Source: Terriglobia bacterium | Lineage (GTDB): Bacteria > Acidobacteriota > Terriglobia > UBA7540 | Assembly (NCBI GenBank): GCA_050745265.1 | Contig: JBOGKE010000078.1 | Coordinates: forward strand, 36,841 to 100,840 | Direction: 5' to 3' | DNA: 64,000 bases | Part shown: piece by piece, positions 14,344 through 56,880 of the stretch | Numbering within the stretch: position 1 is the stretch's first letter | Layout: the number at the start of each line of letters is the position of its first letter | The notes under the pieces: model-generated | Told to the model about the DNA's origin: nothing | Seen by the model: only the letters and a program-made list of their open reading frames with translations | Database searches by the model: none | Program-made: the position numbers and the translations under genes

Positions 14344-14828
14344 GTAGCGCCGGGCTTCAGGGGCTGCGGAAAAAGGCGCTGCCAACTGTCGTTCTGCGCC
14401 CTTCGGCTCCGCTCTCCAGAAACTTCTCGTGAAGACGAGCGAAAGGCCCGAAGGGCCGCAATAAAGTAGCCCCGGGCGCAAGCCCGGGGGAGGGCAGCAC
14501 CCCAAATTGCCGCTCCGCGCCCGCCGCCCGGTGCCGGCACCTGGCGGCGGGCGCGGAAAGATGATCCTTGGAGGCTCACGTTCCCACGGCTTGCGCCGTG
14601 GGCTACTTTATTTCGCCCGCTCCGCGGGCTTACGCCGACGTTTCCGGCGCTATGGACCCGCCGCGAGGCGGGCAAGCAACTCAGGGTAAACTCCCCGAAG
14701 AATCTCTGCATTTAAGAATCATACCAATATGGAGATTCCTCGCCGCCTGCGGCTGCTCAGAATGACACGGTCCGGGGGTTTTCCGCAGCCTCTTCAGCCC
14801 GGCATGCCGCCCTAAAGGGCGGCTCTAC
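14344..14828. mobile_element. Nested repeat: GTAG REPIN split by a TIR MITE (14360-14792) carrying a further 265-bp REP insert
   Basis: TTCA duplicated at 14356-59 and 14793-96; TIRs GGGGCTGCGGAAAA/TTTTCCGCAGCCTC; CTC duplicated at 14412-14 and 14680-82. Confidence 0.8.
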
Positions 14829-34261: not shown

Positions 34262-34591
34262 CTGTCATTCTGAGGTGTTCCTCATGTCGCTTCGCGACAC
34301 CCCGAAGCAGGAAATGACCCCTCACCCGCCCTCGTTCCTCGGTCGCCCTCTCCCGAGGGGAGAGGGTGGTGAGCCCTTCGGCTCCGCTCTCCAGAAACTC
34401 CTGACGGGGGCGGCCAAAAGGCCCGGAGGGCCGGAAGAACGTAGCCCCGGGCGTAAGCCCGGGGTCAGGGACAGCACCCGACGTATTCTTGCCGCGCCTC
34501 GCGCCCCGCGCAAGCACCGGGCGCGAGGCGCGGCAAGAGGTCGGAAGAGACTCGCCTTACCCACGGCTCACGCCGTGGATGCTTCCGCTAC
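34262..34591. repeat. Composite REP cluster
   Basis: CTGTCATTCTGAGG arm, CCCTCACCC/CCCTCTCCC hairpin, CCCTTCGGCTCCGCTCTCCAGAAACT junction as at 14399-14423, GTAGCCCCGGGCGTAAGCCCGGGG hairpin. Confidence 0.8.
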
Positions 34592-46068: not shown

Positions 46069-47862
46069 TCAGTTTCGGTTTGGCAGAACCGCGTCAACCA
46101 TCTCGCGAAACGTCTGGCGAATAATGCCGCGCTCATTCGGATCGCCCTTGAGCAGCGCCGATGCGTAAGCCTTAGCCTGTTCAAAGGTGATGTGAGGCGG
46201 CAGGGGCGGCACGTCCGGATCGGTAATCGCGTCAATCACCACCGGCCGGTCCGCTCGGAGCGCTTCTTCCCATGCGGGGCGGATTTCCGCCGGTTTGTCC
46301 ACCAGAATGCCGCGCAGACCCAGTGACTCCGCGTAATTTGAATAGGAGAAGTTCGGCAGGTTTTGAGAGCATTCGAACTTCGGATCGCCCGCCATCACCC
46401 GCTGCTCCCACGTCACCTGGTTCAAGTCGTTGTTGTGCAGCACCAGAACAATCAGCCGCGGATCGCTCCACTCGCGCCAGTACTTGGAGATTGTGAGGAG
46501 ACCGTTGTTCCCGTTCATCTGCATCGCACCATCGCCGACCAGCGCGATGGCGATACGTTCCGGATAGGCGAACTTGGCCGCAATCACGTACGGCACTCCG
46601 GGTCCCATCGTGGCGAGGTTTCCTGAGAGCGACGCCATCATGCCCCGGCGGACTTTTAGATCGCGGGCAAACCAGTTGGCGGAGGAGCCGGAGTCCGACG
46701 CCACGATGCAATTGTCGGGCAGAAGCGGCGAGAGCTCCCAGAAGACCCGCTGCGGGTTGATGGGGTTGGCCTCGTCCATCGCTCGAGCTTCGAGCAGCTT
46801 CCACCACTCGTCCACGCCTTTCTCGATGGTCGCCCGCCATGCGCCGTCGCCGTTCTTGTTCTGGAGATACGGCATCAGCGCCTGCAGCGACAGCGCGCTG
46901 TCGCCAATCAGGTTGATTTCGGTGGGATAGCGAATTCCGACCATGCGGCCGTCAATGTCAATCTGAACGCCTCGCGCCTGGCCTTCTTTGGGAAGAAATT
47001 CAGAATAGGGAAAACTGGTTCCCACCATGAGCAGCGTGTCGCAGTTCACCATCATGTCGTAGCTGGGCTTCGTGCCCAGCAAACCGATGGACCCCGTAAC
47101 GTAGGGAAGATCGTCGGGCGCCGCGGCCTTGCCCAGCAAAGCCTTGGCGACGCCGGCCCCGAGCATCTCAGCGACTTGCAAGACCTCGTCGGTGGCGTTG
47201 AGAGCGCCCGCGCCGATCAGCACGGCGACCTTGCTTCCGGCGTTCAGAATGTCTGCCGCGCGCCGGAGGTCGTCGTCATTCGGAACGATCCGCGGCGCCG
47301 AATACGCGAGTCCTGAGTGGACGGTTCCGTGCGCCCGTGCGGGTTCCTCGACCGCGGGGAGTTCCTGAAGATCGTTCGGCAGGATCACGCAAGTGACGGT
47401 GCGTTCGGCAAGCGCGATGCGCACCGCGCGGTCGATCAGATGGCGCGCTTGTGCGGGGACCGATGCCATGTACACGTACTCGTGCGCCACATCCTTGAAC
47501 AGCGAGATCAGGTCAATCTCCTGCTGGTAGCTTCCCCCGATCGCCGCGCGCGCCTGCTGTCCCACAATCGCCACCACGGGAGCGTGATCCATTTTGGCGT
47601 CATACAAACCGTTCAATAAGTGAACCGCGCCGGGCCCCGACGTCGCCATGCAGACACCAGGCTCGCCGGTGAACTTGGCGTGCGCGCAAGCCATGAACGC
47701 CGCCATTTCCTCGTGCCGCACCTGAACGAATTTCAGCTTGTCTTTGGCTCGGTTAAACGCTCCGAGTAGCCCGTTGATGCCATCTCCCGGATAGCCGTAA
47801 ACGCGCCGCACTCCCCACTCATAAAGCCTCTTCAGAATAAAGTCAGCTACCAGTTCTGCCAT
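46069..47862 (-). CDS. Thiamine pyrophosphate-requiring enzyme (pyruvate oxidase/PoxB-like)
   Basis: GYPGDG, VRHEEMA, TSGPG, GDGAMQMN...N; ATG 47862 with GGAGG SD. Confidence 0.93.
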   Translation of the reverse strand: MAELVADFILKRLYEWGVRRVYGYPGDGINGLLGAFNRAKDKLKFVQVRHEEMAAFMACAHAKFTGEPGVCMATSGPGAVHLLNGLYDAKMDHAPVVAIVGQQARAAIGGSYQQEIDLISLFKDVAHEYVYMASVPAQARHLIDRAVRIALAERTVTCVILPNDLQELPAVEEPARAHGTVHSGLAYSAPRIVPNDDDLRRAADILNAGSKVAVLIGAGALNATDEVLQVAEMLGAGVAKALLGKAAAPDDLPYVTGSIGLLGTKPSYDMMVNCDTLLMVGTSFPYSEFLPKEGQARGVQIDIDGRMVGIRYPTEINLIGDSALSLQALMPYLQNKNGDGAWRATIEKGVDEWWKLLEARAMDEANPINPQRVFWELSPLLPDNCIVASDSGSSANWFARDLKVRRGMMASLSGNLATMGPGVPYVIAAKFAYPERIAIALVGDGAMQMNGNNGLLTISKYWREWSDPRLIVLVLHNNDLNQVTWEQRVMAGDPKFECSQNLPNFSYSNYAESLGLRGILVDKPAEIRPAWEEALRADRPVVIDAITDPDVPPLPPHITFEQAKAYASALLKGDPNERGIIRQTFREMVDAVLPNRN

Positions 47863-47974
47863 CGAGAGCCTCCGAGCGCCTGTGGGGAAACGCGGCGTAA
47901 CAGGCTGGGGAAAATCGTAATCGCCTAACCTGCCATTGTGAGGAGTTGTTATGTCCCGGCCCGCCGGGACCAAG

Positions 47975-49695: not shown

Positions 49696-50430
49696 TCAGG
49701 GCTCGATGATCCCGTTTCGCACCGCGTAGTGAACGAGCTCGCTCACAGAGTGCAGATGCAGCTTCCGCATCAGGTTGGCGCGGTGCGTCTCGGCCGTCTT
49801 CACCGACAGGTCGAGCAGCGACGCCACTTCCTTGTTGCTCTTGCCCTCCGCGAGCAACTGGATGATCTCGCGCTCGCGTGCGGTCAAGACCTCCGATTCT
49901 CCGCCTTCGGCCGAAGCGGCGCGGCCTTCCTCCTCGCGAAGGTACCCCTCGAGAACGATGCGAGCGACCTTGGTGGTAAAAAACGGCCGGTGCCGGTGCA
50001 AGGACTCGACGCCCGCCACAAGGTCTGACGACAGATCCGACTTCAATATGTAGCCGCGCACTCCGGCCGCGAGCAGCGAGCGCGCCAGTTGCTCCGAATC
50101 GTGCGCCGTGATGGCGAGAATCTCAGTCTGCTCGCTGGCCTTGCGGATGTGCCGGGCCGCTTCGAGCCCATTGAGACCCGGCATGCTGATGTCGAGGACT
50201 ACAACCGAAGGTTTTCTCTGGCGAACGAGCTCGACGGCTTCGTGGCCATCGCGCGCCTCGCCGCAGATTTCGTGGCCCGCTTCGCCCTCAAGCAGCGTTC
50301 GAAGCCCGCGGCGAACGATTTCGTGATCGTCAGCGATCACGATTCGAATCTTCGGCTTGGGCGACGGGGGTGGCGACGGTGGAGGCGCGAGCCGACCGGC
50401 AGCGGGTTCGCTTGCCATCTTAATCCTCAT
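49696..50430 (-). CDS. NarL/FixJ-family response regulator (copy 1)
   Basis: IADDH, LDISMPG, GYILK, LTARERE..TAETHRANLMRKL; alternative ATG 50418. Confidence 0.95.
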   Translation of the reverse strand: MRIKMASEPAAGRLAPPPSPPPSPKPKIRIVIADDHEIVRRGLRTLLEGEAGHEICGEARDGHEAVELVRQRKPSVVVLDISMPGLNGLEAARHIRKASEQTEILAITAHDSEQLARSLLAAGVRGYILKSDLSSDLVAGVESLHRHRPFFTTKVARIVLEGYLREEEGRAASAEGGESEVLTAREREIIQLLAEGKSNKEVASLLDLSVKTAETHRANLMRKLHLHSVSELVHYAVRNGIIEP

Positions 50431-50701
50431 TACCCGGCATCAGACTCGATCCCGCCGAGCGGGGCAGACGACGCTGAGCCGGAATCACTAAACAGAAAAG
50501 TCTTCAGTACGCGCAGCAAGTCCTCGGCCAAAAGCGCAAGCCCCGCGGTTGCTGAAATTGCACCGCGACGCAAACGAACTTATAGCACGCGCCGGGAAGA
50601 ATTTCCACTCTCAAGCATTAGCAGGCGGCTCAGTTTCGCGCGCGTAGCGACGGCCTGATGCCACCGGGAATGCCAACCCCTGCAGGGTGCTCGCCCCGTT
50701 T

Positions 50702-50718
50702 CGTAGGTTTCACCTACG
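50702..50718. promoter_or_regulatory. Perfect 7-3-7 palindrome, candidate LuxR/NarL operator
   Basis: CGTAGGT-TTC-ACCTACG between the two regulator genes, upstream of copy 1. Confidence 0.5.
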
Positions 50719-50790
50719 GCTATTCACGGTCTCGCCCTTCGGGCAAGGGACGTTTGCGGCCCTCTGGATCCGCCATCGGCGAGCGGAGCC

Positions 50791-51447
50791 TCAGGGCTGG
50801 ACCAGGTTGTTCCGTATCGCATAGCGGACCAGTTCGCTCGTCGAGTGGATATCAAGCTTGCGCATGATGTTGGCCCGGTGGGTTTCGGCTGTCTTGAAGC
50901 TGATACCGAGGTCGCTCGCTACGTCCTTGGTGCTCTTGCCCTCCGCCAGAAGCTGCGCAATCTGTCTTTCCCGGGGACTCAGCGGATCATCCGGCAGAAG
51001 CTTGCGGCTTCTTCCCGAGGACGAAAAGGGTCCGGCGGCTCCGAGTTTTTGAGAGATTCGATGGCTTAAGAAGGGCTTGTGCTGACTAAGCGTTCGTATC
51101 GCGTCGAGCAGTTCGCTGCTGGGGTCTGACTTCAACAGATAGCCGCGCACGCCGGCCCGGAGCGCCTCCCGCACCATCTCTTCCGATTCGTGCACGGTCA
51201 ACACCAGCACCTCCGTTCCGGCGAGATCGCTGTGGATGCGGCGGGCGGCTTCCAGGCCGTTCAGCCGCGGCATGCTCACGTCGAGCACGACAACGTCCGG
51301 CTTCAGTTCGCTGGCTTTGCTCACCGCCTCCTGGCCATCACAGGCTTCACCGCAGACCTGCCATCCCGGCTGATTTTCAAGCAGCGACCGCAGTCCCTTG
51401 ATCACCACCGGGTGGTCGTCAGCCAAGAGAATGCGCAGTGTCTCCAT
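50791..51447 (-). CDS. NarL/FixJ-family response regulator (copy 2)
   Basis: LADDH, LDVSMPR, GYLLK, LSPRERQ..TAETHRANIMRKL; ATG 51447. Confidence 0.95.
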   Translation of the reverse strand: METLRILLADDHPVVIKGLRSLLENQPGWQVCGEACDGQEAVSKASELKPDVVVLDVSMPRLNGLEAARRIHSDLAGTEVLVLTVHESEEMVREALRAGVRGYLLKSDPSSELLDAIRTLSQHKPFLSHRISQKLGAAGPFSSSGRSRKLLPDDPLSPRERQIAQLLAEGKSTKDVASDLGISFKTAETHRANIMRKLDIHSTSELVRYAIRNNLVQP

Positions 51448-51624
51448 AAAGAGGCTCCAGCGTAGGCTAGGATGGATCGCGAATTTCAGCAATATGGGAA
51501 AACCAGTAGTTCGGGGAAACGAATCGGGTAGGCTGGAGTATTGGGGGGAAACGAATGCCGAGCCGCGCGGCGCCGCGCCGGAGCGGAGGGTGGGGGCCGG
51601 TTCGCCCTCTCCTCGCGCGGACGA

Positions 51625-52992
51625 CTAAGCCCCTTCGGCTTGCAGCGCGGCTAACGGGACCGTGGCGCGGACCACGGTGCCCTTATCTGAGAATCTGACC
51701 GTCAGCTTCCCCCCTAATTGCTCCATGCGCGCCTTCATCCCGTCGATGCCGATGCCCGTGCTCACCGTCTCGTCATCGCTCGTGGGGACCTGCGGCCGGC
51801 CCGCCGCGCCGCGCGGCGAGCCTCGCCCGTGGTCACGTACTTCGAGGCTGAGGTTGCCCTGTTCCACCGCCAGCCGAACCTCAGCCGTGCGGCTGCCGGA
51901 ATGGCGATAAACGTTGTTCAGGCTCTCCTGGAAAGCGCGAAACAGAGCCAGCTCCGTATCCTGAGGCAGTCGCTGGATCGCGGAGGGAAGCTGAAAATCA
52001 ACGCGCACCCTGGTACGCTCGCTGAATCTGGAGGCGTACCAGCGCATTGCCGGCAGCAGTCCGATGGTGTCCAGGTCGGGCGGATGAAGTAGATGCGACA
52101 GATTGCGAATTTCCTGTGCGGCGCGTTCGGCAAGCGATCGGCTTTCGAGCAGTGCAGATACGAGCTTGGCATCGCCGGACGGGATCCGCCTCTCCACCAC
52201 GTCGAGGTTAAGCAGAAGAGCGTAGAGCGTCTGCGCGGTGCTATCGTGCAGCTCACGCGCGATGCGGCGCCGCTCGTCGTCCCGCGACCGCAACAGCCGC
52301 GCCGACAATTGGCCGAGCATATCCTGCGCCCGCTTGCGCTCAGTGATATCGTGCAGGATCGCTAAGCCTCCGATGATCGCACCTTTCCCCGCCGCCGAGC
52401 CCGTTTCTTCAAAAATCGGCGAGTAGAACGCGTCAAAGTAGCCTTGGCGGTCGGCCATCCGGTAAAGCCGTTCTCGGGTTACAGAGGACTTGCCCCGCAA
52501 GACGCCGTGGAGGACTTTCTCCTCGCCCGTCGTTTTCAGGAAAGGCAGCACGTCAAAGGCGGGGCGGCCGAGGGCGTCTGCCTCAGGCAGCCCGAAAATG
52601 TGCTCCATGGCGGGATTCCACATCGTACATCGGCAGTCCCGGTCAAAAGCGAAAATCCCCTCAGCCACGCTGCTGATGACGCGCTCTATAAACTCCTTCT
52701 CACGGTGCACTTCCCTGCGGGCACGCCGCCCGGCGGGCATATCATTCTCGATTCGGAACGAAGCGGGCCCGGAGTCGTTCGGTTGTCGCCCGAGCATTAC
52801 GGTGCTGCTCTCGGCGCTGACAGGTTCTCGGCAGCTGTTCTCACCGGAGTCAGACTCTGGAGGACCGCACTCGAGCCACCCATCTCTGACGTGATCCCAC
52901 GATCCGGCCGGCTTCTCCGCGGCGACGAGCCGCAGGTCGGATCGGGCCTGCCGCTGGAACGGCTTTAGTTTGAGAAAAGGGCCCTTGCCCAT
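51625..52992 (-). CDS. Cytoplasmic PAS + HisKA_3 sensor histidine kinase
   Basis: PAS (WNPAMEHIFG), RRRIARELHD, QESLNNVYRHS, DHGRG, GIGIDGM; no TM seen. Confidence 0.93.
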   Translation of the reverse strand: MGKGPFLKLKPFQRQARSDLRLVAAEKPAGSWDHVRDGWLECGPPESDSGENSCREPVSAESSTVMLGRQPNDSGPASFRIENDMPAGRRARREVHREKEFIERVISSVAEGIFAFDRDCRCTMWNPAMEHIFGLPEADALGRPAFDVLPFLKTTGEEKVLHGVLRGKSSVTRERLYRMADRQGYFDAFYSPIFEETGSAAGKGAIIGGLAILHDITERKRAQDMLGQLSARLLRSRDDERRRIARELHDSTAQTLYALLLNLDVVERRIPSGDAKLVSALLESRSLAERAAQEIRNLSHLLHPPDLDTIGLLPAMRWYASRFSERTRVRVDFQLPSAIQRLPQDTELALFRAFQESLNNVYRHSGSRTAEVRLAVEQGNLSLEVRDHGRGSPRGAAGRPQVPTSDDETVSTGIGIDGMKARMEQLGGKLTVRFSDKGTVVRATVPLAALQAEGA

Positions 52993-53256: not shown

Positions 53257-53763
53257 CTAACTCGCCGCGGCTTGCTGAGCGCGCCGATTCGCCGTACTCA
53301 CCGCTACCTCGGTGAGTTTCTTGTCGGCGGCCTTTTCCTCGTCCAAAGTCTGCTCCAAAAGCTGCGCGCCCGCCGCGTCCCCGAGCTGCATGGCCCAGGT
53401 CCGGGCGGAGCCGTAGGCCGCGATCTCATAATGCTCCACGCGTTGAACGGCGGCAATGATTCCAGCGTCCCGCACCGCAGCATTATCCGTGCCACCGACC
53501 GCTCGGTCGCTCTCTTCCAAGATGCCTTTCATCGAATCGCAGGTCTTGCCCTTCGCCGTCTTGCCGAGGCCGCGGAAAACACGATCCAGGCGGTCCACGT
53601 GCTCTCGCGTCTGCTCGGCATGGTCCTCAAGGGCGGTTCGAAGCGCTGTTTCCGAGCTTGCGCTCGCCACCTTGGGCAGGGCTTTCAGAATCCGCTTCTC
53701 GGCGTCATACAGGCCTTCCAACTGGTCCAGGTACAGTTGTTCGAGCGTCTTAAGCTTTGCCAT
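53257..53763 (-). CDS. DUF892 ferritin-like protein (YciE/YciF)
   Basis: QLEGLYDAE, HAEQT..H..RL, VEHYEIAAYG, TLDEEKAAD; AAGGAG SD. Confidence 0.95.
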   Translation of the reverse strand: MAKLKTLEQLYLDQLEGLYDAEKRILKALPKVASASSETALRTALEDHAEQTREHVDRLDRVFRGLGKTAKGKTCDSMKGILEESDRAVGGTDNAAVRDAGIIAAVQRVEHYEIAAYGSARTWAMQLGDAAGAQLLEQTLDEEKAADKKLTEVAVSTANRRAQQAAAS

Positions 53764-53909: not shown

Positions 53910-54080
53910 TTAAATTTCGCGCTCGCTCCAGGGCGATAGGAATAGACTCGACGAGTAAAGCAGCGCCTCCTGGGAGCGGCAGCTCTCCTCATGCGCACGC
54001 TGTGCACTCTCGGAATCAAATATCTTGCTGCAGACGGTGCATTGATACCAGCAGAAGGGATTCTCCCTCCCCGGCGGCAT
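53910..54080 (-). CDS. Putative small zinc-finger protein (C2HC)
   Basis: YQCTVCSKIFDSESAQRAHEESC = C-x2-C-x3-F-x8-H-x3-C; start uncertain (SD only 2 nt from ATG 54080; ORF open to 54236). Confidence 0.55.
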   Translation of the reverse strand: MPPGRENPFCWYQCTVCSKIFDSESAQRAHEESCRSQEALLYSSSLFLSPWSEREI

Positions 54081-54473
54081 GACCTCCTGCGGCACCAATT
54101 CCGGCAATTGTGTTTTCGAATGCACGGGCGTTCCGATGGATTCTCGGCTGGTACGATTGGGGGAAACAGCGGCGCGATTCACAAACGACCACAGGCCGAC
54201 TCTTCTGGCTGCCCCCGCAGCCCGAACACCGGTCATCCAGCCCTCGCGCGTTCTTACGGCTTGTCTTCGGACCTAAGTGTGATTCAGGCCGTGCACCGGG
54301 TCAATCGGGCAGACTCCGTAATTTTGCCGGGTGATTTGCCGCAATTTCCGAGGGCGTCTTCTCCTACAGTGATATTCACCGCCCCGGTAAGGTTTTTGCT
54401 CGATTGAGAAAGAGTTGCTTTGGACCGATCCTGGAGTGAGGAATATCAATCCTTCACAAGGAGGAACGGCATC

Positions 54474-54575
54474 ATGAGCGATCAGCAATATCGATGCAGT
54501 TCATGCGGCAAATCGTTCAGCAACGCCTCGGAGCTCCACGAGCACGAGAAGACGTGCAAGAGCGGAAGCCGCTGA
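54474..54575 (+). CDS. 33-aa single classical zinc-finger microprotein (absent from ORF track)
   Basis: MSDQQYRCSSCGKSFSNASELHEHEKTCKSGSR; Y-x-C-x2-C-x3-F-x5-L-x2-H-x3-C; AAGGAGG SD at 54458-64. Confidence 0.85.
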   Translation: MSDQQYRCSSCGKSFSNASELHEHEKTCKSGSR

Positions 54576-54703
54576 AACCAAAGCGGGCCGGGAGGCGCTG
54601 CGGGTGGACTCCAGAGGCGGTCGCCGCTGTTCGCTTCGCAAGTACTAGCCGCTCCGGATCAGCGCCCCCAGCCGCCCTGTCGTCACTGAGAAAGGAGACG
54701 CTG

Positions 54704-55264
54704 ATGAACCAACTCACATCCTTGCAAGTGGCGGTTATCGCGACGGATGGCGTCGAAGAGAATGAACTGACAGAGCCGGTGGCGGCTCTTGAGGCCGCAG
54801 GCGCCACGGTGACGATCATCTCGCCCCGGGCGGGCTCGATTCAGGCGTTTCGGCACCATGACAAGGGAGCGAAAATTCCTGCCGACGTGACGCCCGACAA
54901 AACACTCCCTGGCGCTTACGACGCGCTCTTGCTGCCCGGTGGCGCGCTGAACGCCGATGCTCTGCGCGTCGAGCCGGCCGTATTAGAATTCATCCGCTCG
55001 ATTCACGACGCGGGAAAGCCGATCGCAGCAATTTGCCACGCGCCCTGGGAGTTGATTTCAGCCGGTCTGGTTCGTGGCCGCAAGCTGACCAGCTACCACA
55101 CCATCAAAGACGATGTTCGCAACGCCGGCGGCGAGTGGCTGGACCGCGAAGTTGTCGTCGATCGCAACTGGGTCACCAGCCGCCAGCCGGATGACATTCC
55201 GGCGTTCAACCGCGCCATGATCGAGCTCTTCTCGGAGTCATTCACGGTAAAGACGAACGCCTGA
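54704..55264 (+). CDS. pfpI: PfpI/DJ-1 family type 1 glutamine amidotransferase-like protein
   Basis: DGVEENEL, LLLPGG..NAD.LR, AAICHAPW, TSRQPDD; AAGGAG SD before ATG 54704. Confidence 0.93.
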   Translation: MNQLTSLQVAVIATDGVEENELTEPVAALEAAGATVTIISPRAGSIQAFRHHDKGAKIPADVTPDKTLPGAYDALLLPGGALNADALRVEPAVLEFIRSIHDAGKPIAAICHAPWELISAGLVRGRKLTSYHTIKDDVRNAGGEWLDREVVVDRNWVTSRQPDDIPAFNRAMIELFSESFTVKTNA

Positions 55265-55290: not shown

Positions 55291-55664
55291 GTAGCGCCGG
55301 CCTTCAGATTGCGGAAAGGCTCTTCGTCATTCTAACTGCCACATGAGCCTGCGGCCGCCCTATTGGAATGAAAATCAACACGATCGTCACCCCCGCGAAA
55401 ACGGGGGTCCAGGGTCTGATTCCCGCTTTCGCGGGAATGACTGGTGATCTTCGACAGGGCGAAGCGAACAATCTTTAGCATTTAAGAATTAAACAAATCC
55501 GGGATTCTTCCTTCGGCGGCGCTCAGAGCCCGCCCTGCGCGTAGCGAATGGGACCGCCTAGGGGGTACGGCTCCTCAGAATGACAGGTTCCGAGGTTTCC
55601 CGCAGCCTCTTCAGCCTGGCGCAAATATTGGCTTCTAATTTGCCGCCCTAAAGGGCGGAGCCAC
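55291..55664. mobile_element. GTAG REP split by a TIR MITE with an ATTCCCGC insert; inverted homologue of 44452-44724
   Basis: TTCA duplicated at 55303-06 and 55610-13; 55326-55470 is near-identical to the reverse complement of 44541-44697; right flank matches 14781-14828. Confidence 0.8.
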
Positions 55665-55682: not shown

Positions 55683-56510
55683 ATGGCAGCTTCGATTTGG
55701 AAGGGTTTTCTGAGCTTCGGTCTCGTCACAATTCCTCTCCGCTTGCACGCCGCGGCGCGAAGCGAGCGGGTTGAGTTGCACCAGATCCACAAGGTCTGCC
55801 GCACACGATTGCGGCGGCCCTTATTCTGCCCCACCTGCAATCGCATGGTGGAGCAGTCCGAAGCCGCCAAAGGCTACGAGTACGAAAAGGGGCAGTCTCT
55901 CATCATCGAGGACAAGGAAATGTAGAAGCTCCTTCCCGAGACCGGCGGGAACATGGAGATCCGCGAGTTCGTCCCGCTGAGCGAGATCGATCCCATCTAC
56001 TACGATGCCTCATACGTTGCGGTTCCCGAGAAGGCGGGGCAGAAGGCCTATCAGCTCCTCGTTCAGACGATCCAGGAGACTGGGCAGATCGCGCTCGCCA
56101 AGGTGGTGATGCACCGGAGGGAATATCTCATTGCCATTCGGGCGCGTGACCAAGGGCTTACTCTTCACACGTTGTTTTTTGCCAGCGAAATCCGGCAGGT
56201 TTCCGAGTACGGTCACTTCGAAACCCAAGTGAGCCCGGAGGAAGTGAAGCTCGCCAAGGAACTCGTCGCCAGCCTCTCAACCCACTTTAAGCCGGAAAAG
56301 TACCACGACGAATACCAAGCCAAACTCAAACAGCTCCTCGCCGCAAAATCCAAGGGGAAAGAAATTCCGATCGCGCGCGAGCCGAAGCTCGCTCCCGTAA
56401 TCGATATGATGGACGCGCTCAAGAGAAGCTTACCGCGAGCCGCCGCCAAGAAGGCAGCGCGGCGTCCAGCGCGCCCCGCCCCCCGCAAAACCCAGCGGAG
56501 AGCGAGCTGA
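55683..56510 (+). pseudogene. ku: Ku (NHEJ DNA-end binding) interrupted by one in-frame TAG (55923-25)
   Basis: IWKGFLSFGLVTIP, KGYEYEKG, IDPIYYD..Y, YHDEYQ, VIDMMDALKRSL; the two track ORFs are in frame across the stop. Confidence 0.9.
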
Positions 56511-56703: not shown

Positions 56704-56880
56704 GTATCGGGGCACGACTTTAGTCGTGCCGTTTGCGGGCCATTGATCGTTTCGGCTTTAGCCGCTGAGGTCCTCTCCAGAAGCTTCAGACCGGAGCGGC
56801 GAAAAGGCCCGGAGGGTCGGAACAAAGTAGCCCCGGGCGTAAGCCCGGGGTTAACGACAGCGCCCACGTTTTCTTGCGTG
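56704..56880. repeat. GGCACGAC REP arm followed by the CCCGGG-hairpin element
   Basis: GTATCGGGGCACGACTTTAGTCGTGCCG, CGGCTTTAGCCG, CTC|TCCAGAA junction, GTAGCCCCGGGCGTAAGCCCGGGG. Confidence 0.8.

What the first reader, a model, noticed from the sequence alone, without database searches (positions are those of the whole stretch)
54458..54575. Hidden 33-aa eukaryote-style zinc-finger microprotein
A perfect AAGGAGG SD precedes MSDQQYRCSSCGKSFSNASELHEHEKTCKSGSR, which matches the classical Y-x-C-x2-C-x3-F-x5-L-x2-H-x3-[H/C] finger. It is essentially a naked beta-beta-alpha finger, unlike the larger Ros/MucR domains. It is masked by a spurious N-terminal extension of pfpI. One finger is too small for specific DNA binding alone, so Zn buffering, redox sensing, or protein/RNA adaptor roles (e.g. 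on the NarL pair) are plausible. With its divergent partner it may define an undescribed zinc-finger microprotein module in a stress regulon.
Basis: partly seen in the sequence, partly recalled or inferred. Interest (0 to 1): 0.8.

Follow-up and report, generated by a model that had tools for sequence, protein, structure and literature searches.

The report
Bacterial single zinc-finger microprotein gene
The 33-codon reading frame is very probably a real gene for a free-standing, eukaryote-style zinc finger, one member of a widespread but unstudied family of soil-bacterial microproteins that sit next to stress-protection genes.

Summary
AAGGAGG (54458-54464) lies 9 nt before ATG 54474, and the frame ends at stop 54573-54575. 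It encodes MSDQQYRCSSCGKSFSNASELHEHEKTCKSGSR.

The peptide scores above Pfam's zf-C2H2 cut-off. It models as a beta-hairpin plus helix whose best PDB matches are almost all C2H2 fingers. The finger pattern occurs twice in the window and in none of 300 shuffles.

It is not an orphan. A degenerate DNA search found at least 120 metagenome loci, mostly 30-46-aa genes with an ATG and a Shine-Dalgarno site. 57 of 59 members match Pfam DUF7128. Public records call them hypothetical, "C2H2-type zinc finger protein" or, wrongly, RpoP.

The window's own neighbours recur beside members elsewhere: PfpI, DUF892, Ku, a NarL-type regulator and a PRK08273-type TPP enzyme. The commonest partner is a PRC-barrel protein, adjacent in about 30 loci and fused to the finger in two.

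So this is a real member of a catalogued but uncharacterised family, and public gene calling already finds it. The "divergent pair" is two separate units, finger then DUF892 and finger then PfpI, not a conserved pair.

Function is inferred only. My best guess is a Zn-stabilised binding module working with co-encoded stress proteins. Nucleic-acid binding and metal or redox roles remain open.

The parts
54458..54464 (+). Shine-Dalgarno site AAGGAGG, 9 nt before the start codon
   Evidence: Read directly. In 55 of 66 distinct small family genes a Shine-Dalgarno core of at least 5 nt lies 4-12 nt upstream, against 3.1% of all ATGs in the same loci.
54474..54575 (+). Coding sequence of the 33-aa C2HC zinc-finger microprotein, stop included. 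Ligand codons: C8 54495-97, C11 54504-06, H24 54543-45, C28 54555-57.
   Evidence: PF00096 27.9 bits, above the cut-off of 25.2; beta-beta-alpha model, best matches C2H2 fingers; family of at least 120 loci; GC3 0.76.
53910..54080 (-). Divergent second finger gene, probably 56 aa from the internal ATG 54080: MPPGRENPFCWYQCTVCSKIFDSESAQRAHEESC... The longest ORF, 108 aa, runs up to 54236.
   Evidence: Pfam DUF7128 scores 26.8 bits, above the cut-off of 25.7. GC3 is 0.71 for codons 53-108, against a flat 0.62/0.58/0.62 across the three codon positions for codons 1-52. AF2 model: hairpin plus helix 24-42, pLDDT 68.5. The start is uncertain: AGGAGG lies only 2 nt before ATG 54080.
53257..53763 (-). 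DUF892 (YciE/YciF-type ferritin-like) gene, 146 nt downstream of the second finger gene on the same strand
   Evidence: Pfam PF05974 176 bits. DUF892 lies next to family fingers in at least 10 other loci.
54704..55264 (+). PfpI/DJ-1 family gene (186 aa), 128 nt downstream of the microprotein gene on the same strand
   Evidence: Pfam PF01965 172.9 bits. NCBIfam TIGR01382 170.6 bits. A finger lies upstream of PfpI again in L004, L010, L016, L157 and L199.
54494..54703 (+). Spurious 70-codon upstream extension of the pfpI ORF, overlapping the microprotein gene in another frame
   Evidence: Homologues start at residue 1 of the 186-aa form. GC3 is 0.64. The public gene call gives 186 aa.
54081..54457 (.). 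Divergent intergenic region that should hold the promoters of both finger genes (inferred)
   Evidence: No sigma-70-type consensus was found. The promoter type is unknown.
49696..52992 (-). Context: PAS-HisKA_3 histidine kinase (51625-52992) and two NarL-type response regulators (50791-51492, 49696-50430)
   Evidence: Pfam. A 54%-identical regulator and a similar kinase lie in the same island as a 57-aa finger in L204/L205.
55683..56510 (+). Context: Ku gene, interrupted by an in-frame TAG at 55923-55925
   Evidence: Ku lies next to family fingers in L110, L119, L137 and L142.
46069..47973 (-). Context: PRK08273-type thiamine-pyrophosphate enzyme (pyruvate-oxidase-like)
   Evidence: NCBIfam NF006129 1064 bits. 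Orthologues 45-51% identical flank the 32-aa finger operon in about 20 loci of another lineage.

Best explanation
The frame 54474-54575 is a real, translated gene. Its 33-aa product is a free-standing classical-type zinc finger: a beta-hairpin carrying Cys8 and Cys11, and a helix carrying His24 and Cys28, around one Zn ion. This is the 12-residue Cys-to-His spacing of eukaryotic C2H2 fingers, with the last His replaced by Cys.

It belongs to a large bacterial family of 30-60-aa single-finger proteins. The family overlaps Pfam DUF7128 and is seen in records named Terriglobia, Blastocatellia, Methylomirabilota and 'Deltaproteobacteria'. Its genes sit immediately beside, and sometimes fused to, stress or dormancy-type proteins: PRC-barrel, DUF892/YciF, PfpI/DJ-1, Ku and DUF3309.

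In this window there are two such units back to back: finger then DUF892 on the minus strand, and finger then PfpI on the plus strand.

Shown (computationally): gene-like anatomy, family membership, predicted fold and conserved neighbourhoods.

Inferred: the finger is made together with its neighbours under stress or stationary-phase conditions. It acts as a small Zn-stabilised binding module for a protein partner. The conserved residues are structural, while the exposed helix face differs between subfamilies that have different neighbours.

My confidence that it is a real zinc-finger gene of this family is about 0.9. My confidence in the protein-adaptor mechanism is about 0.35. The overall figure given for this explanation is a compromise between the two.
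For: Anatomy:
- Perfect Shine-Dalgarno site, ATG and gene-like GC3.
- Already called as a 33-aa gene in a public assembly.

Fold:
- PF00096 scores above its cut-off.
- A family profile hits ZNF568, Aart and the consensus finger in the PDB.
- AF2 model pLDDT 79.7, strands at 6-7 and 14-15, helix 18-31.
- The Foldseek matches listed are almost all C2H2 fingers; the best have query-normalised TM-scores of about 0.6-0.75 and rmsd 0.4-3.3 Å.

Family:
- A degenerate-codon search gave at least 120 metagenome loci. 78 of the 111 ORFs that reach a stop codon are 70 aa or shorter, nearly all with ATG starts, and 55 of 66 have a strong Shine-Dalgarno site against a 3% background.
- Across 26 distinct 32-aa genes, third-codon-position differences are 0.33 against 0.19 and 0.17 at positions 1 and 2. 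pN/pS is 0.39 on codons not fixed by the search pattern.
- 68 catalogued proteins matched the family profile.

Independent finds by PfpI synteny:
- L004, a 56-aa finger beginning MADQ...; L010 and L016, a PRC-barrel protein with a C-terminal finger. All lie directly upstream of PfpI.

Recurrent neighbours:
- PRC-barrel in 11 of 123 neighbouring proteins, and about 30 loci by tblastn.
- DUF892 in at least 10 loci, PfpI in L157/L199, Ku in 4 loci.
- The same kinase/regulator/DUF892 island in L204.

Published context:
- A PRC-barrel protein is in the RpoE2 general-stress regulon of S. meliloti (PMC6180224).
- YciF (DUF892) is an iron-binding ferroxidase that protects against bile and oxidative stress (bioRxiv 10.1101/2023.01.20.524870).
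Against: - There is no expression, peptide or metal-binding data for any member.
- The nearest relatives are only about 55-60% identical to the window's protein. Single-sequence searches found only the protein itself.
- The conservation of C, G, F, EL, HE and C in the metagenome set is partly imposed by the search pattern.
- pN/pS of 0.39 is only moderate.
- No PRC-barrel gene lies in this window, so the partner here would have to be PfpI, something else, or encoded elsewhere.
- Adjacency to many different proteins fits simple co-regulation just as well as physical binding.
- No promoter or terminator consensus was found, so co-transcription with pfpI is unproven.
Confidence: 0.55

Rival explanations
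1. The finger binds nucleic acid. It would be either a small transcription regulator of the stress island or a general DNA/RNA-binding protector, using the helix face plus the short basic C-terminal tail.
For: - The fold is that of DNA-binding C2H2 fingers.
- Pfam's dsRNA-binding JAZ-type finger scores 22.1 bits against a cut-off of 22.6, and 46 of 59 members match it weakly.
- A basic tail of about +2 follows the last ligand in almost all members.
- Ku, a DNA-end binder, is a recurrent neighbour.
Against: - The finger core is on average uncharged and whole proteins range from -3 to +5 net charge.
- The helix positions that contact DNA in Zif268-type fingers are mostly Ser, Gln or Glu here.
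- From general knowledge, a single classical finger without flanking basic regions binds DNA poorly.
- There are no tandem fingers or linkers, except in rare two-finger variants.
Confidence: 0.25
2. The Cys3-His site is the point. The microprotein would act as a zinc or other metal buffer or chaperone, or as a thiol-based redox switch that releases Zn under oxidative stress.
For: - Three thiolate ligands.
- The neighbours include metal and oxidative-stress proteins: ferritin-like DUF892, Nramp directly upstream in L204-L207, and a weak CusF-like periplasmic protein and cupredoxin near the 32-aa subfamily.
Against: - The L004/P0205/P0210 subfamily uses His as the last ligand, so a Cys3 redox centre is not a family requirement.
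- One site per 33 residues makes a poor buffer.
- The CusF hint is below the cut-off (E = 0.0099).
- Strong conservation of non-ligand fold residues points to a structural zinc.
Confidence: 0.15
3. The small ORF works in cis as a translated leader. Its translation, dependent on Cys, His or Zn supply, would tune expression of the downstream pfpI.
For: - It lies 128 nt upstream of pfpI on the same strand with no terminator-like site between them.
- Family members often precede another gene by 13-60 nt.
Against: - The peptide sequence is conserved as a foldable domain across phyla, and it also occurs as a C-terminal domain of larger proteins and downstream of its neighbours (L139, L180).
- The spacer RNA is no more structured than shuffled sequence (z = -0.06).
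Confidence: 0.05
4. The ORF is not functional in this genome. It would be a chance frame or a decaying remnant, for example of a PRC-barrel-finger fusion gene.
For: - The window's protein is the only member of its 90%-identity cluster.
- The neighbouring Ku gene carries an in-frame stop, so some decay or sequencing error exists nearby.
Against: - All four ligands, the hydrophobic core, the start codon, the Shine-Dalgarno site and the stop are intact.
- There were 0 pattern matches in 300 shuffles.
- No PRC-barrel remnant lies upstream.
- GC3 is gene-like.
- Independent lineages keep a finger upstream of PfpI.
Confidence: 0.04

Closest known systems
Eukaryotic classical C2H2 zinc finger (Pfam PF00096; e.g. 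Zif268, ZNF568, the designed consensus finger 1MEY)
   Same: Same motif spacing (C-x2-C-x12-H), same aromatic and Leu core, and the same predicted beta-beta-alpha fold. The Pfam score is above the cut-off, and residues 3-27 are about 40% identical to individual human fingers.
   Different: It is a single finger forming the whole protein, with no tandem array and no TGEKP-type linker. The last ligand is Cys at +3 rather than His. The helix face is acidic to neutral. It is bacterial and sits in operons with stress proteins.
C2HC variants of the classical finger that serve protein-protein contacts (FOG/U-shaped CCHC fingers; the third finger of plant BIRD/IDD factors, PF22995; zf-C2HC_2, PF13913)
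   Same: A classical fold with Cys as the fourth ligand. The microprotein matches PF13913 at 23.4 bits and PF22995 at 19.7 bits, both below their cut-offs. 48 and 15 of the 59 family members match these families. That these eukaryotic fingers bind proteins is from my own knowledge, not tested here.
   Different: Those are domains of large eukaryotic transcription cofactors. No homology beyond the generic finger is shown, and no partner is known here.
Pfam DUF7128 (PF23447), a domain of unknown function
   Same: 57 of 59 family members match it at E of 0.01 or better. The divergent partner scores 26.8 bits, above the cut-off of 25.7. This is the catalogue entry that best covers the family.
   Different: The 33-aa protein itself scores 22.8 bits, just under the cut-off. 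No function, structure or paper is attached to the family: no paper in the library contains the name.
Ros/MucR 'prokaryotic zinc finger'
   Same: A bacterial protein with one Cys2-His2-type Zn site, often discussed as the prokaryotic counterpart of C2H2 fingers (PMC9779718).
   Different: [quoted passage not shown] Here the spacer is 12 residues, the whole protein is 33 aa, and no Ros/MucR family appears among the Pfam matches.
Haloarchaeal one-domain zinc-finger micro-proteins (C(P)XCG type, e.g. in Haloferax volcanii)
   Same: Proteins under 70 aa that are a single zinc-binding domain, with reported roles in stress adaptation, biofilm formation and swarming (PMC6562870).
   Different: Those carry two C(P)XCG knuckles (C4, zinc-ribbon-like). 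This protein has one CxxCG knuckle and a helix carrying H-x3-C. They are archaeal and a different fold class.
YciG of the E. coli yciGFE operon, a small hydrophilic stress protein encoded beside the DUF892 proteins YciF and YciE (analogy from my own knowledge)
   Same: A small hydrophilic protein encoded next to DUF892 genes. Longer family members carry Gly/Gln/Ser/Lys-rich disordered tails.
   Different: YciG has no zinc finger. No sequence relation was tested or claimed.

Membership tests
Classical C2H2 zinc finger (PF00096) | Profile score at or above Pfam's gathering cut-off | tested here: met
   27.9 bits against 25.2, residues 6-27 on profile positions 1-22 of 23.
Classical C2H2 zinc finger (PF00096) | Motif (F/Y)-x-C-x2-4-C-x3-F-x5-L-x2-H-x3-5-H with two Cys and two His ligands | tested here: inconclusive
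   Every position is met except the last ligand, which is Cys28 at H+4 (a C2HC variant). The related subfamily L004/P0205/P0210 has His one position later.
Classical C2H2 zinc finger (PF00096) | Beta-beta-alpha fold | tested here: met
   Prediction only. AF2 pLDDT 79.7, strands 6-7 and 14-15, helix 18-31. The Foldseek matches listed are almost all C2H2 fingers, the best with query-normalised TM-scores of about 0.6-0.75. E-values are not significant because of the small size.
Classical C2H2 zinc finger (PF00096) | Binds one Zn(II) tetrahedrally | not testable with these tools
   Needs metal analysis or Co(II) titration of the peptide.
Classical C2H2 zinc finger (PF00096) | Occurs in tandem arrays joined by conserved linkers (typical of the family, not obligatory) | tested here: not met
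   One finger forms the whole protein. Only rare two-finger relatives exist, P0155 and P0180.
DUF7128 (PF23447) | Profile score at or above the gathering cut-off | tested here: inconclusive
   The microprotein scores 22.8 bits against 25.7, just below. The divergent partner scores 26.8, above. 57 of 59 family members match at E of 0.01 or better.
Ros/MucR prokaryotic zinc finger | [quoted passage not shown] | tested here: not met
   The spacer is 12 residues and the whole protein is 33 aa. There is no Ros/MucR Pfam match. The defining features are taken from PMC9779718.
RNA polymerase subunit P / RPC12 (the name JGI gives many members) | NCBIfam NF001605 at or above its cut-off; a four-Cys zinc ribbon | tested here: not met
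   17.2 bits against a cut-off of 63. The second ligand pair is His/Cys on a helix, not a second knuckle.
C(P)XCG zinc-finger micro-proteins of haloarchaea | Two C(P)XCG motifs | tested here: not met
   There is only one CxxCG (C8-G12). The second half is H-x3-C. The motif definition is from PMC6562870.
Zinc-binding anti-sigma factors (ZAS) | H-x3-C-x2-C motif at the N-terminus of an anti-sigma domain | tested here: not met
   The ligand order is reversed (C-x2-C...H-x3-C) and there is no further domain. The zf-HC2 family is not among the Pfam matches.

The most novel reading that the evidence does not exclude
These free-standing bacterial fingers are a true prokaryotic lineage of the classical beta-beta-alpha zinc finger, not recent imports from eukaryotes. 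They would work as stress-induced, partner-specific accessory subunits for PRC-barrel, DUF892, PfpI or Ku proteins, or as the missing regulator of a general-stress or dormancy island in Acidobacteriota and neighbouring phyla. If so, they offer a simpler candidate ancestor for the eukaryotic C2H2 finger than Ros/MucR.
Probability: 0.2. Interest if true: 0.85.

Novelty: new member of a known kind. Interest (0 to 1): 0.55.

Why it matters
The reviews I read treat the compact beta-beta-alpha C2H2 finger as the eukaryotic form and Ros/MucR as the prokaryotic zinc finger. This locus belongs to an abundant soil-bacterial family of minimal single fingers. One 32-aa member alone is indexed in 525 blocks of the assembly collection.

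The family has classical spacing, strong translation signals and conserved operon partners, yet no experimental work that I could find. It offers three things:
- a tractable 30-aa model for zinc-finger folding and evolution;
- a handle on the still obscure PRC-barrel and DUF892 stress proteins;
- a reminder that annotation pipelines misname such genes (as RpoP or 'transposase-like') or may hide them behind over-extended neighbours.

For this window alone the result is modest: a correctly spotted small gene in an uncharacterised family.

Tried and rejected
- **Single-sequence homologue searches.** The 51-aa ORF and the 108-aa partner each returned only themselves.
- **Exhaustive representative search.** With the 33-aa protein it was swamped by eukaryotic poly-finger proteins (21,865 hits at E of 0.001 or better, and the 150 listed were long multi-finger proteins).
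- **Locus search with a five-sequence alignment.** I replaced it with a hand-made degenerate DNA pattern. That pattern fixes C, G, F, EL, HE and C, so conservation of those columns in the resulting set is not independent evidence. A few hits are eukaryotic multi-finger genes (L105, L195, L189, L149, L197).
- **A conserved two-finger pair.** No second finger was found in the other loci. The apparent partner hit in L180 was the same gene.
- **Promoters, terminators and RNA structure.** No sigma-70-type promoter was found, and no terminator-like site between the finger gene and pfpI. The spacer between the finger gene and pfpI folds no better than shuffled sequence.
- **Other libraries.** NCBIfam has no model reaching its cut-off. 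Rfam shows nothing at the locus.
- **Viruses.** Only 2 viral contigs matched the pattern, and neither looks like a family member.
- **Long 'cluster members'.** The 441-aa and 462-aa members (P0257, P0267) are unrelated enzymes, so they are clustering artefacts.
- **Ros/MucR, zinc-ribbon/RpoP, C(P)XCG and ZAS readings.** All rejected on motif and profile grounds (see the membership table).
Full report
**1. What is in the sequence**

AAGGAGG occupies 54458-54464. After 9 nt comes ATG 54474, followed by 33 codons and a TGA stop at 54573-54575.

The peptide fits the classical finger pattern with Cys8, Cys11, Phe15, Leu21 and His24, plus Cys28 in place of the second His. Pfam zf-C2H2 scores 27.9 bits against a cut-off of 25.2. 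The next best families are zf-C2HC_2, DUF7128 (22.8 against 25.7) and the JAZ-type finger (22.1 against 22.6).

The finger pattern occurs twice in the window and never in 300 dinucleotide-preserving shuffles. GC at the third codon position is 0.76, matching real neighbours at about 0.74.

The longest pfpI ORF (from 54494) overlaps the small gene in another frame. That extension is spurious for three reasons:
- PfpI homologues align from residue 1 of the 186-aa form that starts at 54704.
- The extension has GC3 of 0.64.
- A public assembly of the same DNA calls PfpI as 186 aa and also calls the 33-aa gene and the 108-aa divergent ORF.

So the gene is real-looking, but it is not hidden from standard gene callers.

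**2. Fold**

A phmmer scan of 1.84 billion representative proteins gave 21,865 hits at E of 0.001 or better. The 150 listed were long multi-finger proteins whose individual fingers match residues 3-27 at about 40% identity. A family profile hits ZNF568, Aart, PRDM9 and the consensus finger in the PDB.

AlphaFold2, run with a 46-sequence alignment, gives pLDDT 79.7, short strands at 6-7 and 14-15, and a helix at 18-31. The Foldseek PDB matches listed are almost all C2H2 fingers; the best have query-normalised TM-scores of about 0.6-0.75 and rmsd 0.4-3.3 Å. E-values are not significant for so small a domain.

The published picture of the prokaryotic finger, Ros/MucR, is different. [quoted passage not shown] That membership is rejected.

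**3. Relatives found through synteny**

Direct single-sequence searches found only the window's own proteins. I therefore scanned species-representative genomes with PfpI. The closest PfpI proteins (70-76% identical) are in Terriglobia and Acidobacteriota MAGs. Together with four Acido-Lenti-1 RNAs in the window, this places the window in the Acidobacteriota.

In three of these loci a finger lies directly upstream of PfpI on the same strand:
- L004 has a 56-aa gene, MADQRPGSSEHRCSQCNQTFSSSEELRKHNETQH..., with a GGAGG site. It is followed by a DUF3309-like gene and then PfpI.
- L010 and L016 have a PRC-barrel protein whose C-terminus is the finger YVCEKCG(D/E)HFHSQAELSAHE(T/A)KC. The domain architecture is confirmed.

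These relatives were found without assuming the motif. They show conserved ligands, with the last ligand switching between Cys at +3 and His at +4.

**4. Relatives found through a DNA pattern**

I searched the metagenome collection with a degenerate DNA pattern for C..CG..F....EL..HE..C. The pattern carries about 42 bits by my own estimate, so on the order of one chance hit is expected.
- 78 of the 111 ORFs that reach a stop codon are 70 aa or shorter, typically 30-46 aa.
- 64 of 66 distinct small genes start with ATG.
- 55 of 66 have a Shine-Dalgarno core of at least 5 nt at 4-12 nt upstream, against 3.1% of all ATGs in the same loci. My start-codon choice favoured Shine-Dalgarno sites, so this figure is slightly biased.

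Among 26 distinct DNA versions of the 32-aa subfamily (MELFKCQQCGRKFNSQEELRKHEQECLPARVK), I looked only at codons not fixed by the pattern. Mean pairwise differences are 0.19, 0.17 and 0.33 at codon positions 1, 2 and 3, and pN/pS is 0.39. The start and stop positions are also conserved.

The nearest in style to the window's protein are MAEQMRCHKCGKTFGSSSELREHERSCKGGSR (L161) and ...HKCANCGKSFNSASELREHEKTCKASGSQRR (L157/L199).

A profile search of the protein collection returned 68 catalogued proteins. Their source names are 'hypothetical protein', 'DNA-directed RNA polymerase subunit RPC12/RpoP', 'uncharacterized C2H2 Zn-finger protein' or 'C2H2-type zinc finger protein'. The records are named Methylomirabilota, Blastocatellia, Terriglobia and Deltaproteobacteria.

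57 of 59 members match Pfam DUF7128 and 56 match zf-C2H2. NCBIfam has no model reaching its cut-off, and the RpoP model scores 17 bits against 63. No paper in the library mentions DUF7128.

**5. Neighbourhoods**

Of 123 nearest-neighbour proteins, the only strongly recurrent Pfam family is the PRC-barrel, with 11 members. By tblastn, about 30 loci carry a two-PRC-barrel protein of about 266 aa that starts 35-56 nt downstream of the 32-aa finger. A small signal-peptide protein ends about 13 nt upstream of it.

Each of the window's own neighbours also recurs beside family members:
- DUF892 lies next to fingers in L100, L116, L125, L131, L139, L148, L155, L163, L184 and L180. The arrangement is operon-like in L131, L139, L155 and L180.
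- PfpI lies downstream of the 46-aa finger in L157/L199.
- Ku lies beside the finger in L110, L119, L137 and L142.
- A PRK08273-type TPP enzyme, 45-51% identical to the window's (46069-47973), flanks the 32-aa operon in about 20 loci.
- On a 790-kb Terriglobia-type contig (L204), a PAS-HisKA_3 kinase, a NarL-type regulator (54% identical to the window's), DUF892 (55% identical) and Nramp precede a 57-aa C2H2 finger.

The window's island is therefore a conserved association.

A PRC-barrel protein belongs to the RpoE2 general-stress regulon of S. meliloti (PMC6180224). YciF (DUF892) is an iron-binding ferroxidase that protects against bile and oxidative stress (bioRxiv 10.1101/2023.01.20.524870). 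That PfpI/YhbO and Ku are stationary-phase or stress functions is my own background knowledge.

**6. The divergent 'partner'**

ORF 53910-54236 (minus strand, 108 aa) contains YQCTVCSKIFDSESAQRAHEESC. It passes the DUF7128 cut-off (26.8 against 25.7).

Codons 53-108 have GC3 of 0.71, whereas codons 1-52 are flat at 0.62/0.58/0.62 across the three codon positions. The N-terminus from the internal Met (MPPGRENPF.WYQC) resembles the short MPTPA.P.TNQFRC forms. I therefore favour a 56-aa product from ATG 54080, although AGGAGG lies only 2 nt before that ATG.

Its model shows the same hairpin plus a longer helix, with a disordered tail (pLDDT 68.5). It lies 146 nt upstream of DUF892 on the same strand.

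No other locus examined holds two fingers. The window therefore carries two paralogous finger-plus-stress-gene units placed head to head, not a conserved two-finger module.

**7. How it probably works**

The following is shown, all computationally: gene anatomy, fold prediction, family membership and conserved neighbourhoods. Everything below is inference.

The conserved non-ligand residues are what a minimal finger needs structurally:
- the aromatic residue before Cys1;
- Phe and Leu in the core;
- a Ser-x-x-Glu helix cap;
- Gly after Cys2.

The exposed helix positions differ between subfamilies that have different neighbours. The core is uncharged on average, with a tail of about +2 after the last ligand. 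Longer members add hydrophilic, disordered tails.

The PRC-barrel fusion (L010, L016) together with the PRC-barrel adjacency is a Rosetta-stone argument for joint action with a protein partner. I therefore rank the readings as follows:
- A Zn-stabilised protein-binding accessory made with the stress island: about 0.35.
- A nucleic-acid binder or regulator: about 0.25.
- A metal or redox role: about 0.15. The Nramp, ferritin-like and weak CusF-like neighbours favour it. The C2H2 subfamily argues against a Cys3 switch.
- A cis-acting leader: about 0.05.
- No function: about 0.04.

**8. Novelty and verdict**

The finger fold is known, and the family is already catalogued as DUF7128 or generic C2H2. 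The window's gene is therefore a new member of a known, though uncharacterised, kind.

What seems unreported is the picture as a whole: an abundant bacterial family of free-standing classical-spacing fingers tied to PRC-barrel, DUF892, PfpI and Ku genes. This is of moderate interest for zinc-finger evolution and for bacterial small-protein and stress biology.

Noticed in passing
window 55683-56510 (+), stop at 55923-55925: The Ku gene is split by an in-frame TAG after codon 80, with both halves matching Pfam Ku. This could be a pseudogene, a sequencing error or a real split.
   Followed up: partly
window 14444-14489 (-), 14583-14630 (+), 34419-34464 (-), 56805-56850 (-): Four copies of the Acido-Lenti-1 RNA motif (RF01687) score above the gathering score. 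This is consistent with an Acidobacteriota origin.
   Followed up: no
window 46069-47973 (-); L095, L113, L118, L120, L127, L160, L165, L185, L190, L208-L211: A PRK08273-type thiamine-pyrophosphate enzyme (pyruvate-oxidase-like) lies 6.5 kb from the finger in the window. Orthologues 45-51% identical lie directly beside the 32-aa finger operon in another lineage. This linkage across phyla is unexplained.
   Followed up: partly
L208-L211 (e.g. L209 4678-6562): A conserved operon in contigs that carry P0220 (its 90% cluster is not taxonomically named; the related cluster of P0261 is named Methylomirabilota). The order is a signal-peptide protein of about 105 aa (weak CusF-like hint), the 32-aa finger, a two-PRC-barrel protein (266 aa) and a 206-aa membrane protein. 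An ECF sigma factor with a zf-HC2 anti-sigma factor lies about 2 kb away.
   Followed up: partly
L204 1-6174 (also L205-L207): On a Terriglobia-type contig the order is PAS-HisKA_3 kinase, NarL-type regulator, Ysc84, DUF892, Nramp and then a 57-aa C2H2 finger (H-x4-H). The island resembles the window's, but with a metal transporter between DUF892 and the finger.
   Followed up: partly
L100, L125, L132, L133, L148, L163, L184, L198 (e.g. L100 375-821): A 148-160-aa subfamily has a long hydrophilic, probably disordered N-terminus (MKTNTPHLPKTN.PDSDE...) before the finger and a conserved tail (ECRLAKA...ED...H.RN). It is usually convergent with a DUF892 gene. Pfam finds nothing in it at E of 0.001.
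   Followed up: no
P0155 (63 aa), P0180 (64 aa): Two-finger relatives with C2H2 ligands (H-x4-H) and no eukaryote-type linker.
   Followed up: no
Protein collection clusters of P0163, P0196, P0189: Many members are named 'DNA-directed RNA polymerase subunit RPC12/RpoP' by JGI, although the RpoP model scores about 17 bits against a cut-off of 63. This looks like a systematic misannotation.
   Followed up: yes
L104, L106, L121 (dataset Ga0170475): Three contigs begin 4-5 nt before the ATG of a finger gene, and this dataset supplies many hits. It may be transcript-derived, which would hint at high expression in soil.
   Followed up: no
window 55380-55450: A stretch rich in inverted repeats, resembling a REP element (...cccccgcgaaaacgggggtccagggtctgattcccgctttcgcgggaatgac...), lies between pfpI and Ku.
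   Followed up: no
L203 5541-5603: A viral contig encodes a 109-aa protein with an N-terminal finger-like motif (CRYCGKCFKHWVELFNHETEC) fused to an unrelated C-terminal part. It is probably not a member of the family.
   Followed up: no
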